Assembly (NCBI RefSeq): GCF_018977255.1
Contig: NW_024704743.1
Location: 25,298,001-25,362,000 of the forward strand
From: Callorhinchus milii
Taxonomy: Eukaryota
DNA length: 64,000 nt
Reading direction: 5' to 3'
Shown here: positions 25,907 through 33,481 of the stretch, piece after piece
Position numbering within the stretch: position 1 is the stretch's first letter
How the letters are laid out: the number at the start of each line of letters is the position of its first letter
Notes under the pieces: model-generated
Told to the model about the DNA's origin: nothing
What the model saw: the letters and a program-made list of their open reading frames with translations, nothing else
Database searches by the model: none
Position numbers and translations under genes: made by a program

Positions 25907-25944
25907 TCAAGATCTTGGGTAGTCCGGTCCAGGTTTTGAAAGAC
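25907..25944 (-). CDS. SNRPB-like: SmB-like last coding exon (GLSKPGPDYPRS*)
   Basis: Strong acceptor tcttttcttttag|; 12-residue ending with the same length and PG/PR positions as SmB' [12 protein letters not shown]. Confidence 0.8.
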
Positions 25945-26434
25945 CTAAAAGAAAAGATGTAAGATGATCATTGCAGTTTGCATCACATACTTAACAGACT
26001 TGAAACAATTTTAAAATGGGACAATTTTTCCACTCCCACTTCAGCATGAATAAAAAAGAATCGTAAAATAGAAATGACAAGAACCAAATCTGGTAATAAT
26101 GATCTTGGTCTGCAAACACCATTAATTTGCTGAATATGTAACTTTATGCTGAAATTTGTCTCAAGATTATGCTATGCAAGTGTACATCAGTGCTCAGTGA
26201 CCTTCACAATTAAGATGCACATTAACATCAGTTAGTCATTTTTATTTGAAAATCTATTGTGGACAATAAAAATGTAATTAACACTAAGAAGCTATGATAA
26301 AGGATAGAGAAAAAACTTTGCAGAACCAATGATTTGAATGATTTGGATTGTGGGATATTTATAGATTCAATATGAGACAGGATCAAAGAAAAGAGCACAA
26401 AACAATATTGGAGTTGAATTTGTAATATTCCCAA

Positions 26435-26700
26435 ATAATAATAATCCCTCCATTTGATATAGCGCCTTATCATGTCTTCGAGACGTCTCAAAGCGCTTCT
26501 CAGAATATACGTGAATTGACTGTATATTTTGTGGGCGAAACGCAGCAACCAATTGTCTACAACAGTGTCCCACCAACAGTCGTGGATTGAGTGACCAAAT
26601 TATTATTTAATTTTTTTTTGAGAGATTATTACCCCTGGAAAAACGATCCACCAATCGACTAACAATCGGGTTCCTGCTTACTGCTAGATAAACAGAAGTG
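26435..26700 (-). mobile_element. SINE body and tail
   Basis: Reverse complement of the family body and tail. Confidence 0.85.
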
Positions 26701-26951
26701 TTTACAAATATTTATAAAAGGGATGTGATGGACTAAGGTGCATTTCCTTGATCACCTTGAGAAGTTAAATAGAAAGGTGGTGGGGGGGGGCAGTGAGGGG
26801 GGGAGGGGAGCATTGTCGAGTGCAGGAAAAAAAGGCAACCGAGTGAAATGGATGATGCCTTTTTTTACTTTCAAGCTTATTTTCTCACTGTGGCAGCCAT
26901 TGGAGTGAAGAGGATAATGTATTTTTGTGCCCAAGATGAATCAATATCTAC

Positions 26952-27074
26952 CTTTCACCGTAGGTATCATTGGTAGCATCATCTCTGGAAGAATTACCAC
27001 GAGACCTCCTCTGCCAAGTGGCATTCGCATTAGCCCAAACAAAGTTTGCATGCCAGGAGCTGGTGCCAACAGGT
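26952..27074 (-). CDS. SNRPB-like: SmB-like exon 6 homologue (LLAPAPGMQTLFGLMRMPLGRGGLVVILPEMMLPMIPTVK)
   Basis: 123 nt, tatag| and |gtagat boundaries, phase 1-1; aligns with SmB [23 protein letters not shown]... Confidence 0.85.
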
Positions 27075-27169
27075 CTATAATTAAAATATCATTTGTAATT
27101 TCCAGCAATTGATGCTACAGGAATCTTATTTTTCAGTCTTTCAGGATTTCAATTATATTCCGATCAGTG

Positions 27170-27860
27170 TACAACTCTATCCCAACTCTATCTCTCTGCC
27201 TCCATCCTCGACTCTAGGACTACTGCTGACCTGACAGGAAGTCTAACAGATATCAAGTCCTGGATGAGAGCGAATTTTCTACAGCTGAACGTCAACAAGC
27301 CTTGAGGCTCTCCTGATTGTCTCCGGTCAGTGCCTCCACACCTCAGGCACTGACAGCATCACCATCCAGGGATGCACACTCCACCTCACCCATGTCAGTC
27401 TGGAACCTTGGCATCCTCTTTGACCCTCAACTGTCCTTTCTACCCCACATTCATGCCATGACCTGCTCTGCCTTCCCCCACCTCCGCAACATCGTCCGGC
27501 TGCGCCACTGCCTTACCCCTCAGGCTGCCGAAACCCTCATCCATGAATTTGTCACATCTAGGCTCGATTACACCAACTCCCTACTTGTCAACACTTCCCT
27601 CCACAAGCTGCAGATCATCCAGAACTCTGCAGTTTGTGTCCTCTCCGGCAGCAGGCTCCGTGACGCCATCACCCCCACCCTCACTCCATGTCCTCCGCCC
27701 AGCCCGACCCACCATTGGCGGTCGGCCTTGCCCCACCCTTTGGAACTTCATCCGGCATTCCCTTCGTGTCGCTCGCTCCCTTGCCTCCTTGAAGGCGTGT
27801 CTTAAAACCTTCCTCTTTGACCACGCCTTTAGTCACCCTCCTACTCTCCACCCTCCCCCC
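27170..27860 (+). mobile_element. L2 LINE 3' fragment in an SmB-like intron
   Basis: LTPQAAETLIHEFVTSRLDYTNSLL...LQIIQNSA. Confidence 0.9.
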
Positions 27861-27938
27861 GATTCTGTATTGTATATTGCTAACCTTAATTGGGATACTC
27901 TCTTAAACCTGTGCTCACATAACCCTCAGGGAACCTAC

Positions 27939-31349: not shown

Positions 31350-31634
31350 GACTGCCTGAGTTCAATTCCAGGCAGAGGGCGAAACCTTGGGCAAGTTTCC
31401 TTACTCCACACGCCTAATAATAATCCCTCCAAAACAAAAAACAATAATAAAATTGATCCTTTTCAATCTACGACTGTTTGTGGGACATTGCTGTGTGCAA
31501 TTGGCTGCCGCGTTCGCCCACAAATATACAGTCAATTCACTTTACAGTATATTCTGTGAAGCACTTTGGGACGTCTTGAAGACGTGAAAAGCGCTATATC
31601 AAATGCAAGGATTATCATTATTATTTATTATTAT
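31350..31634 (+). mobile_element. 5'-truncated tRNA-headed SINE nested in an older repeat
   Basis: Begins near the B box; both flanks match 61130-61285. Confidence 0.88.
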
Positions 31635-32234
31635 ACAGGATGGCCTCAATTCTAACATTCCATTGCCAAACATGTCATCTTGGAGCCAGTTTAGCTCCAA
31701 GGAGACCCAGTTTGCCTACCTTACGTGCCAGTCTTGATATTCGCAGTCCAAGTCCATTACCACATATCAGGTTTACCCAGCACCAGCTGCTTAATGCGTA
31801 TAATCCATAGGGACTTTTGCAAATAGATGTGCCCACTGTAAAGCAGGTCCCTCCCTCCCTGCAGCCACATCCCATGTTTGCCACAGATCCACCTCACTGC
31901 TTGATCCTGGACTTTGCAAATGGTCTGGAAGAAGCCCCTCTGCTGCATCCCTAGGAGCTTGGATTCATAAAGAAGGTTCACTTTTATCCTTAATAATATC
32001 AGTGCATTTGAAAATTATCTGACATCTAATAAAACATACGCATGTATCGCACCCTTCAGTTAAACGTCTCAAAGCTCTTCACAGAATGAGATCAGTTAAA
32101 ACTGAAGTGGATGTAGTGTAGGCAAAATAATTAAGTGGAAGCACACTGGATTTTTGCACCAAAAAGGAAACTACATAAAAATCTCACTTTGTAATAAGCT
32201 TTAAGTAAGGGTAAAAGTGTAAACTGCTGCTTAC

Positions 32235-32346
32235 ATCTCTTATGGGAGGTCCCTCTACTGTCATGGACACAAGACTTTCTCCTCGAAGAAGGACTAGGCC
32301 AAGTGACCTCTTTTCTTCTCGCTCAGCCTGCTTACAATTCTTCAGC
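32235..32346 (-). CDS. SNRPB-like: SmB-like exon 3, Sm2 motif ([38 protein letters not shown])
   Basis: 112 nt, catag| and |gtaagc boundaries, phase 2-0. Confidence 0.95.
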
Positions 32347-32774
32347 CTATGTCAACAACAACAACAAATTACACTTGCATAGCACCCTTCATATTGTAAA
32401 GACGACCCAGGGAGCTGGACAATCAGGGATTTTGGACCCGAGCTGGGAGATGGGGTCAGAAGGGGAGAAGGGTAGGATGACAGGGGGGTGACCGAAGGCA
32501 CGATCGAAGAGGAAGGTCTTCAGACGGGACTTGAAAGAGGCAGGAGAGGGAGTGAGGCGGCGGGATTGCGGGATAGAGTTCCAGATAGGGGGCGCGGAGA
32601 TGCTGAATGTCTGACCCGCAATGGTGGGATGGGATGTGCGGAGGACCTGAAGCAGGCCCAGCTTCCCAGCACGATCAATCCCAGCACAAGCACATAGTCA
32701 ACAAAGACAATGCTCATGATGCATGAAAAGCAAAAATCACCAAATACCAATACAGAAAATATACGCACACATAC

Positions 32775-32926
32775 TTGATTCTTCTGAATTCATCACAGTC
32801 ACAGAGAATCAGGTTCATGTGCCGATCGAAAGCTTTGAAAGTTCCAATAAAAACACGGCCATCCTGAAGTATACACCGCATTCTGTGGTCCACATATTCA
32901 ATCATCTTACGGTTTCTTCCAACAGG
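32775..32926 (-). CDS. SNRPB-like: SmB-like exon 2, Sm1 motif ([50 protein letters not shown])
   Basis: 152 nt, tttttag| and |gtatgt boundaries, clear SmB/SmN sequence. Confidence 0.96.
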
Positions 32927-33478
32927 CTAAAAAAAAACAAACAAACCCAAACTTCGACTGCCACAAAAAATGGGTACAGTGAACATTGACCCAAAGGGGG
33001 AAAAAAAATACACCTGCCCCAGAATGCAAATCATGTACACGATTAGACTCTTCAATTATCAGTGGAAAAGGCCAAGCATTAAACTGTGGTTTTGCTCCAC
33101 ATCATTGCTAACCATTCACCAGCAAAATTAAGAGTAAAGCCAATGAGCCTTTGTCATTTAGATCCATTGACCAAACCAAATGGGGGAATAATTGCATCTT
33201 GCTTTTATGTACGGTTTTTTTATCATTGTCTATCAGTGGGGGTTGCAAAGAGGCCCTGCAGGTCTCAAGCTTTTCTCCAGATAAAACAGAGGCAAAACGA
33301 AGAACTTCTCGTCTGCAAACGCCCTGCATTTTGGGACCAGTTTGCACTCCAGCAGCTGAGAGAGAGGGCGAGATGGGTCTGACCAAGTAAGTCACTGAGA
33401 GCTCACCCCAAGAGGGGAGAGGCAACTTGCAAAGTGGCAGCTATCAGACTACCTCCAAACTACAAGGCGAGCACTTAC

Positions 33479-33481
33479 CAT
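33479..33481 (-). CDS. SNRPB-like: SNRPB/SmB-like exon 1 coding part (ATG only)
   Basis: gcaATG|gtaagt; as I recall, vertebrate SNRPB exon 1 ends at the start codon; joins exon 2 in phase 0. Confidence 0.8.

What the first reader, a model, noticed from the sequence alone, without database searches (positions are those of the whole stretch)
25907..33481. Divergent, apparently intact SmB paralogue with a rewritten tail: candidate lineage-specific Sm-ring subunit
Seen in sequence: six exons with canonical splice sites join into an uninterrupted 183-aa ORF at SNRPB intron positions (ATG|, 152 nt, 112 nt, ...). Established knowledge (from memory): the Sm domain of SmB is nearly invariant across vertebrates. 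Here I count 18 of the first 89 residues differing from human SmB (for example [15 protein letters not shown] vs MTVGKSSKMLQHIDY, and RGES vs RGEN), while the uridine-binding pocket residues D35, H37, N39, R73 and G74 are kept. The tail has lost every PPPGMR repeat and keeps only two RG dipeptides, yet stays in frame and ends with a 12-residue exon like SmB'. Inference: this is probably not the housekeeping SNRPB but a duplicate under continuing selection, analogous to but independent of mammalian SNRPN. It could form variant snRNPs with altered PRMT5 methylation, SMN-Tudor binding and WW/GYF-domain contacts.
Basis: partly seen in the sequence, partly recalled or inferred. Interest (0 to 1): 0.85.

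Follow-up and report, generated by a model that had tools for sequence, protein, structure and literature searches.

The report
Cartilaginous fishes' second SmB splicing gene
Sharks, rays and chimaeras carry an old second copy of the gene for a core splicing protein (SmB); in this chimaera the copy still looks able to join the splicing ring but has lost most of the tail that regulates it, which makes it a natural test of what that tail does.

Summary
In detail: six GT-AG exons give a 183-aa SmB-like ORF, with 18 of 89 Sm-domain differences from human-labelled SmB and the RNA pocket kept. It is a paralogue: the canonical seven-exon SNRPB is on C18. Two corrections follow. (1) It is not species-specific. 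Orthologues are annotated as 'B'-like' in 14 named sharks and rays, form one clade with it (100/98), and a ray model points to the same AHRR neighbour. None was found outside cartilaginous fishes. C2 and C18 share three more paralogue pairs (ELMO, ZNFX1, a CAS-family SH3), so a whole-genome-duplication origin is likely, but the tree cannot date it. (2) The tail is eroded rather than rewritten. The whole 153-nt exon 4, which carries the methylated R108/R112 module, is missing here but kept in sharks and rays. The tail changed about six times faster than the Sm domain, while keeping its frame, splice sites and exon sizes. Best reading: an Sm-ring-competent, methylation-poor second SmB, independent of mammalian SmN. 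Expression and snRNP loading are not shown.

The parts
33479..33481 (-). Coding exon 1: ATG followed by a GTAAGT donor, as in canonical SNRPB
32775..32926 (-). Exon 2 (152 nt): N-terminal helix and Sm1 motif with D14, D23, D35, H37, N39, D44, R49; 76% nt identity to canonical exon 2
32235..32346 (-). Exon 3 (112 nt): Sm2 motif with R65, R73, G74; 71% nt identity to canonical exon 3
28063..32234 (-). 4172-nt repeat-rich intron where SNRPB exon 4 (153 nt, residues 90-140, R108/R112) should lie; no remnant found; holds one N at 29722
27939..28062 (-). Homologue of SNRPB exon 5 (124 nt); one RG (R117)
27243..27259 (-). Alternative acceptor inside a LINE fragment of intron 5, used by the public 135-aa model; reaches a stop after five codons
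26952..27074 (-). Homologue of SNRPB exon 6 (123 nt); the only GRG (R152); proline repeats eroded; donor position agrees with skate read-through models
25907..25944 (-). Homologue of the SmB' last coding exon (38 nt, 12 residues, TGA)
25262..25267 (-). First AATAAA downstream of the stop codon; candidate polyadenylation signal
38212..38352 (-). Dead partial copy of intron end plus 74 nt of exon 5 (92% identical, in-frame TGA, truncated)
33518..34065 (.). 35-nt tandem repeat array directly upstream of the ATG
3..17094 (-). Downstream neighbour (part): ZNFX1-like helicase gene whose only paralogue found lies on C18
52398..52505 (+). Upstream neighbour, head-to-head: first coding exon of an AHRR-like gene; a ray's B2 gene model contains its antisense reading

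Best explanation
This is 'SmB2', an old second SNRPB gene kept in cartilaginous fishes. It most likely comes from an early vertebrate whole-genome duplication and was lost in bony vertebrates. SHOWN: intact ORF, a canonical copy elsewhere, one clade with shark and ray orthologues, all ten known RNA-, SmD3- and U1-70K-contact or pocket residues kept, exon 4 absent, tail evolving about 6x faster than the Sm domain. INFERRED: the protein folds as an Sm domain, pairs with SmD3 and takes SmB's place between SmD3 and SmD1 on U1/U2/U4/U5 snRNA in the cells that express it, probably few tissues and at a low level. It works as a splicing-competent but methylation-poor subunit: it has one GRG against four, no R108/R112 module and no PPPGMR, so PRMT5/SMN-Tudor and proline-reader contacts should be weak. 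On this branch the tail is kept mainly as an in-frame, correctly spliced appendage under relaxed sequence constraint.
For: Canonical copy on C18. Window + 11 elasmobranch sequences form one clade, 100/98. 14 of the 19 Sm-domain sites that differ from the own SmB also differ in most or all elasmobranch orthologues, and 5 carry the same residue in all rows. D14, D23, D44 (SmD3 salt bridges), R49, R65 (U1-70K) and H37, N39, R73 (uridine), as named in PMC4436669, plus D35 and G74, are kept in 12 of 12 B2 rows. Sm branch length is 0.15 here vs 0.10-0.26 in 7 elasmobranchs; tail 0.88 vs 0.24-0.53. In a neutral simulation at the matching distance (d 0.3-0.5), a tail with no stop and five splice dinucleotides kept arose in 65, 10 and 3 of 5000 runs, without modelling indels. 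The yeast SmB tail is dispensable (PMC4436669 section 12). Paralogon C2 (125.6 Mb)/C18 (15.2 Mb): ELMO 22.2/6.23 Mb, ZNFX1 25.31/8.28, CAS-type SH3 13.4/6.32 (third copy on C14), SmB 25.33/6.24. Four-fold sites differ at 35 of 52 for the SmB pair, 53 of 80 and 30 of 35 for ZNFX1, and 11 of 21 for ELMO.
Against: No transcript or protein is shown. The only public model of this locus ends early at a cryptic acceptor (135 aa), so the 183-aa form may not be the main product. Two amino-acid variants fall in the tail (L128V in P0001; D179H in one DNA-like run). Dating is open: AU tests reject neither B2 + chondrichthyan SmB (p 0.40) nor B2 + all gnathostome SmB (p 0.24). T76 is shared by both chondrichthyan SmB rows and 10 of 11 elasmobranch B2, against N in 7 of 7 bony vertebrates, which would fit a duplication in the chondrichthyan stem. 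Two other neighbours tested gave no C2/C18 pair (transglutaminase-like exon: C18 and C14 only; DDX27-like: single). The protein tree averages over the whole branch and cannot see a recent loss of function.
Confidence: 0.55

Rival explanations
1. Adaptive specialisation: SmB2 builds a distinct class of snRNP, or a non-splicing Sm RNP, for instance in the germ line. Its altered N-terminal helix and hypomethylated tail are selected features, and loss of exon 4 is a further step that uncouples it from PRMT5.
For: Five family-wide fixed residues (P2, R5, V26, R36, R88) and 14-22 differences in residues 9-89, as many as separate arthropod or mollusc SmB from vertebrate SmB (14-19), whereas bony vertebrates differ by 2. 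GRG count falls across the family: 4 in SmB, 0-2 in B2. Four different B2 sequences lie on one contig of the skate Amblyraja. SmB is the only core Sm protein with a divergent second copy among 17 LSM matches. Small tail differences suffice to separate SNRPN from SNRPB in function (10.64898/2026.02.11.705284).
Against: No new motif is shared by B2 tails. The window's changes are mostly single-base losses of P/G/R/M. No co-duplicated SmD3 or SmD1 partner was found (lower bound). There are no tissue data.
Confidence: 0.22
2. A dying gene: functional in sharks and rays and through most of the chimaera branch, but now released from selection in this species (exon loss, cryptic splicing, a dead partial duplicate), with the ORF surviving because the release is recent.
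For: Loss of an exon that is kept in all 11 elasmobranch rows used for the exon-4 profile. Longest end branch of the tree, 0.55. Public model truncated at a LINE-derived acceptor. Two tail amino-acid variants. Live and dead exon-5 copies differ about as much in the exon (5 of 74) as in the intron flank (6 of 67), a test with little power.
Against: The Sm domain is no faster than in sharks. All ten splice dinucleotides and the sizes of exons 5 and 7 match the orthologues, and exon 6 has only a short in-frame deletion. The exon loss is in frame.
Confidence: 0.2
3. It is the only, fast-evolving SNRPB of this genome, or an assembly or prediction artefact.
For: None found.
Against: A near-invariant SNRPB exists on C18. 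A named protein is 100% identical over exon 2. Orthologues exist in 14 named species. DNA-like run X4 has long contigs matching exons 3, 5, 6 and 7 with flanks (table 8).
Confidence: 0.02

Closest known systems
SNRPB (SmB/SmB'), core Sm-ring subunit
   Same: Sm domain (Pfam LSM; best PDB matches are all SmB, E about 5e-46), intron positions and phases, 3-nt first coding exon, 12-residue last exon, all known contact residues
   Different: 19 of 89 Sm-domain changes where bony vertebrates differ by 2 (residues 9-89); exon 4 missing; 2 RG instead of 7, 1 GRG instead of 4, no PPPGMR; tail 39 of 92 identical
SNRPN (SmN) of therian mammals
   Same: Second, intron-containing SmB gene kept beside SNRPB, differing most in the tail
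   Different: SmN is over 90% identical to SmB and arose by tandem duplication in therians (PMC1626109; 10.64898/2026.02.11.705284). B2 sits on another chromosome, forms its own clade, is far more diverged, also in the Sm domain, and has lost rather than gained arginine sites
RefSeq 'small nuclear ribonucleoprotein-associated protein B'-like / B-like' models of sharks and rays, and XP_007887967.1
   Same: Same gene: one clade, shared diagnostic residues, AHRR neighbour indicated in Narcine; XP_007887967.1 is a model of this very locus
   Different: Elasmobranch forms keep a 47-residue exon 4 and a Pro/Gly/Met tail; the public chimaera model lacks exons 6 and 7; these are automatic annotations without a description found in my searches
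Variant Sm rings (Lsm10/Lsm11 in U7 snRNP; trypanosome U2/U4-specific Sm variants; recalled, not from a call)
   Same: Idea of a substitute subunit in the heptamer
   Different: Those subunits are far more diverged, come as exchanged sets and have a known special RNA; here only SmB is duplicated and no special RNA is known

Membership tests
Sm/Lsm family, SmB subfamily | Sm1 and Sm2 motifs (LSM domain) | tested here: met
   Pfam PF01423 E 9.6e-14 on exon 2, 2.3e-19 on P0001; all 15 PDB matches at E<=1e-10 are SmB-type chains
Sm/Lsm family, SmB subfamily | Uridine-binding triad H37/N39/R73 | tested here: met
   residues as named in PMC4436669
Sm/Lsm family, SmB subfamily | SmD3-contact residues D14/D23/D44 and U1-70K contacts R49/R65 | tested here: met
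   kept in 12 of 12 B2 rows
Sm/Lsm family, SmB subfamily | Incorporation into the heptameric ring on U snRNA | not testable with these tools
   inferred from residues only; no complex was folded
SNRPB orthologue (SmB/B') | Near-invariant Sm domain and position in the ELMO2/DDX27 neighbourhood | tested here: not met
   that gene is on C18 (neighbour names partly recalled); the window gene lies between ZNFX1-like and AHRR-like genes
SNRPB orthologue (SmB/B') | Seven exons with Arg-Gly region 90-140 and PPPGMR repeats | tested here: not met
   six exons, no exon 4, 0 PPPGMR
SNRPN (SmN) | Descent from the therian tandem duplicate; over 90% identity to SmB | tested here: not met
   the SmN row groups with mammalian SmB, outside the B2 clade
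Chondrichthyan SmB2 (this report's name) | Clade membership and diagnostic residues P2, R5, V26, R36, R88 | tested here: met
Chondrichthyan SmB2 (this report's name) | Shared neighbourhood with elasmobranch copies | tested here: inconclusive
   one indirect sign: the Narcine model's N-terminal piece matches the antisense of the AHRR-like exon at 52511-52443, E 4.8e-7; shark DNA could not be fetched
Ohnologue of the early vertebrate genome duplications | Both copies lie in paralogous chromosome segments | tested here: met
   3 of 6 neighbour genes searched have a C2/C18 pair (ELMO, ZNFX1, CAS SH3; no pair)
Ohnologue of the early vertebrate genome duplications | Duplication predates the split of bony and cartilaginous fishes | tested here: inconclusive
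   AU tests p 0.40 and 0.24; gnathostome SmB clade support 55/2
Pseudogene | Stops, frameshifts or broken splice sites; neutral rate | tested here: not met
   a very recent release from selection cannot be excluded

The most novel reading that the evidence does not exclude
Cartilaginous fishes have had two kinds of Sm ring for over 400 million years (age recalled). A tissue-restricted (perhaps germ-line) ring is built with SmB2, with its own N-terminal helix and few PRMT5 sites. In the chimaera it lacks the R108/R112 module entirely, so it splices and releases RNA from chromatin independently of SmB methylation. This would be a second, far older and more divergent 'alternative spliceosome' than mammalian SmN.
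Probability: 0.22. Interest if true: 0.75.

Novelty: new variant of a known kind. Interest (0 to 1): 0.42.

Why it matters
A 2026 preprint treats a second SmB gene as a mammalian peculiarity and asks why mammals need two (10.64898/2026.02.11.705284). An independent, older and more diverged copy across sharks, rays and a chimaera shows that the SmB position tolerates, and may repeatedly favour, a substitute subunit. The series SmB (4 GRG), shark B2 (1-2), skate B2 (0) and chimaera B2 (exon 4 gone) is a natural set of alleles for testing what SmB tail methylation does in snRNP assembly and in release of RNA from chromatin. If the chimaera copy is merely decaying, the value drops to a gene-loss record.

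Tried and rejected
Expression: the run search listed 12 runs, 'no RNA holder listed' on record. Laying four runs (three guessed RNA, one of unknown kind that behaves as DNA) was swamped by repeats. No exon-exon joint is among the 15 joints shown, and 1813 were cut. Only X2 of the three guessed-RNA runs had cover in the bins of exon 6, exon 7 and the 3' UTR (depth 1.03, 1.49, 1.96). Arithmetic fits one contig of depth about 2.3 ending near 25240, about 20 nt past the AATAAA, but the same run also covers most of intron 1 and may hold DNA, so I use this neither for nor against. X1 and X9 had no cover there, which proves nothing. Exon 4 remnant: none by splice-site scan, blastn or tblastn of the canonical exon, by genome search with a shark orthologue, or by a profile of 11 orthologous exon-4 pieces over 264 kb of C2 (best score 3.0 vs 56 for the C18 control). 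A single N at 29722 is the only place where a gap could hide it. Search with exon 6 alone found nothing. NG86 and YN00 dS failed by saturation, so the bootstrap ranges there cover only unsaturated resamples and are not used. B2-type proteins outside cartilaginous fishes: 0 of 298 other proteins fetched had more than 2 of 6 diagnostic motifs, against 22 of 24 known B2 records with 4-6; these are top hits, not a census, and coelacanth, lungfish and hagfish were not checked by genome. The second SmF match (C5 and C67, 97-99% identical over 3 kb) is read as an assembly duplicate or a very recent copy. No fold or complex was predicted: the full-length form was not available as a single stored sequence, and an SmB-SmD3 pair would pass by likeness to solved structures. 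Earlier scan findings: three look-ups, nothing.
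Full report
OBSERVATION. An alternative donor at 26958 would give a different end, but skate models that read through this donor align with the window up to the same point, which supports 26952. 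There are 18 differences in the first 89 residues from a human-labelled SmB, and the pocket residues are kept. The tail has two RG and no PPPGMR.

IT IS A PARALOGUE. Exon 2 and exon 3 each match exactly two places in the genome. The second, C18:6236280-6245221, is a seven-exon gene (3/152/112/153/127/123/38 nt) for a 235-aa canonical SmB'. Its residues 9-89 differ by 0 from a shark SmB and by 2 from each of seven bony vertebrates. The window gene has the same intron phases but no counterpart of the 153-nt exon 4; skipping it keeps the frame. Four searches found no remnant. Exon 4 encodes residues 90-140, including R108 and R112, which a 2026 preprint cites as critical for chromatin release of intron-rich transcripts (10.64898/2026.02.11.705284, passage seen). 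The preprint version of the study on this effect mutated all tail arginines and does not name these two in its main text (PMC11326253, two passages seen).

IT IS NOT CONFINED TO THIS SPECIES. Exon 2 is identical to P0001 (XP_007887967.1, labelled Callorhinchus milii), so the locus is already modelled, as a 135-aa form that also skips exon 4 and then uses an acceptor at 27259. Related 'B'-like/B-like' proteins came from 14 named sharks and rays (Scyliorhinus canicula, S. torazame, Stegostoma, Hemiscyllium, Chiloscyllium punctatum, Rhincodon, Mustelus, Heterodontus, Carcharodon, Cetorhinus, Narcine, Amblyraja, Leucoraja, Rhinoraja). In a tree of 28 rows (11 of the 23 elasmobranch records, chosen as one per species with the longest usable sequence), the window protein and these 11 form one clade, 100/98, with the window row as sister to the rest (88/88, drawn open). 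The Narcine model carries an N-terminal piece that is the antisense reading of the first exon of the AHRR-like gene lying head-to-head with our gene, an indirect sign of the same neighbourhood. No such protein was seen outside cartilaginous fishes among 298 other proteins fetched, which is not a census.

ORIGIN. The gene lies on a 125.6-Mb contig and SNRPB on a 15.2-Mb one. Of six neighbour genes searched, three have partners on the other contig: ELMO (C2 copy closest to ELMO1), ZNFX1 and a CAS-family SH3 gene with a third copy on C14. Three do not. That ELMO1/2/3 and NEDD9/CASS4/BCAR1 are genome-duplication paralogues is recalled, as are the names DDX27, NOD1 and CASS4 (Pfam gave DEAD, NACHT and SH3). 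Four-fold sites are near saturation for all pairs. The protein tree cannot date the event (AU p 0.40 and 0.24), and the shared T76 points the other way. I put a whole-genome-duplication origin at about 0.7 and a chondrichthyan-stem duplication at 0.3. Either way it is independent of SNRPN, a therian tandem duplicate (PMC1626109, passages seen).

SELECTION. Between the two copies, dN in the Sm domain is 0.13 with dS about 1.5 (LWL85 ratio 0.086; other methods failed by saturation). On a fixed tree of 12 rows, the window branch has 0.15 changes per site in the Sm domain, within the elasmobranch range of 0.10-0.26, and 0.88 in the tail, against 0.24-0.53. Fourteen of the 19 Sm differences are at sites changed across the family; five are nearly private. 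Every contact residue named for human SmB in PMC4436669 (passages and section 12 seen) is kept in all 12 B2 rows. Kondo et al. (PMC4383343, passages seen) add that U1-70K touches SmB's beta-4 strand, where the family has V66A/S. In the tail, 26 of 43 residues shared by SmB and most elasmobranch B2 are kept; 16 of the 17 lost are one base away and 12 are reachable by a transition. This is what drift in a Pro/Gly-rich stretch gives, though it does not exclude selection. Yet frame, splice sites and exon sizes survived a divergence at which a neutral tail would keep them in at most about 1% of simulations. So the tail is held in frame, possibly only to avoid nonsense-mediated decay (inference), but is loosely held in sequence.

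MECHANISM. Most likely (0.55) the protein is a working Sm-ring subunit with a worn tail. The yeast SmB core suffices without its tail, and SmB is a pICln-dependent PRMT5 substrate (10.1101/2020.08.22.256347, passages seen). With 1 GRG instead of 4 (preference of PRMT5 for GRG recalled) and no PPPGMR (GYF/WW binding recalled), its methylation and tail contacts should be weak. Rivals are adaptive specialisation (0.22) and recent decay in this species (0.2). Expression could not be settled (see Tried and rejected).

WHAT IS IN PRINT. Full-text searches: SNRPB + SNRPN + elephant shark, 0 papers; SNRPB + ohnolog, 0; Sm protein + paralog + spliceosom + chondrichthyan, 0; a five-term search on testis-specific Sm paralogues, 0; SNRPB + shark, 6 listed, none on this by title or start of abstract; a looser search gave 72, of which 20 were listed and none was on this. 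The 2026 preprint (abstract, Introduction, one Results section and passages seen) has no 'shark' or 'cartilaginous' in its main text; its extended figures and supplements, which hold alignments, were not seen. Subscription journals are not covered.

VERDICT. This is a real gene, already auto-annotated but apparently undescribed: a new variant of a known kind (second SmB gene), older and more diverged than SmN, with a branch-specific exon loss. Interest 0.42; it would rise sharply with tissue-restricted expression and ring incorporation.

Noticed in passing
window 38212-38352 (-): Truncated copy of the end of the intron and 74 nt of exon 5, 92% identical, with an in-frame stop; sign of a local rearrangement upstream of the gene.
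   Followed up: partly
window 3-17094 (-) and G000:C18:8265855-8280539: Two diverged ZNFX1 genes (48-70% identity), one directly downstream of the SmB paralogue; probably another duplicate kept in cartilaginous fishes. An N-terminal stretch near 19200-19700 holds short repeats of an 8-residue unit.
   Followed up: partly
G000:C2:25247513-25269836 (L025, L022): Two tandem NOD1-like NACHT genes, 98% identical over the exon tested, next to the ZNFX1-like gene (name NOD1 recalled).
   Followed up: partly
window 52398-52505 (+) and L011:364-594: AHRR-like gene head-to-head with the SmB paralogue; a shared promoter region with a distant non-coding first exon is possible, since an AG with a pyrimidine-rich stretch lies 8 nt before the ATG.
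   Followed up: partly
P0117, P0118, P0131, P0133: Four different B2 sequences on one contig of the skate Amblyraja radiata, suggesting local amplification.
   Followed up: no
P0110 and G000:C18:6248200-6260000: A catfish model fuses SmB to a DEAD-box helicase like the one next to SNRPB on C18, so this adjacency seems old.
   Followed up: no
L054 (C5:25786716) and L055 (C67:68676): SmF-like exon present twice with 97-99% identical flanks: assembly duplicate or very recent copy.
   Followed up: partly
window 32347-32774: Intron 2 is only 428 nt and mostly repeat-derived, against 3189 nt in the canonical gene; it has little room for the autoregulatory poison exon known from mammalian SNRPB intron 2 (recalled; its presence on C18 was not checked).
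   Followed up: no
window 33518-34065 and L005:350-1260: Both SmB genes have a simple-repeat array just upstream of the ATG exon, of unrelated units.
   Followed up: no
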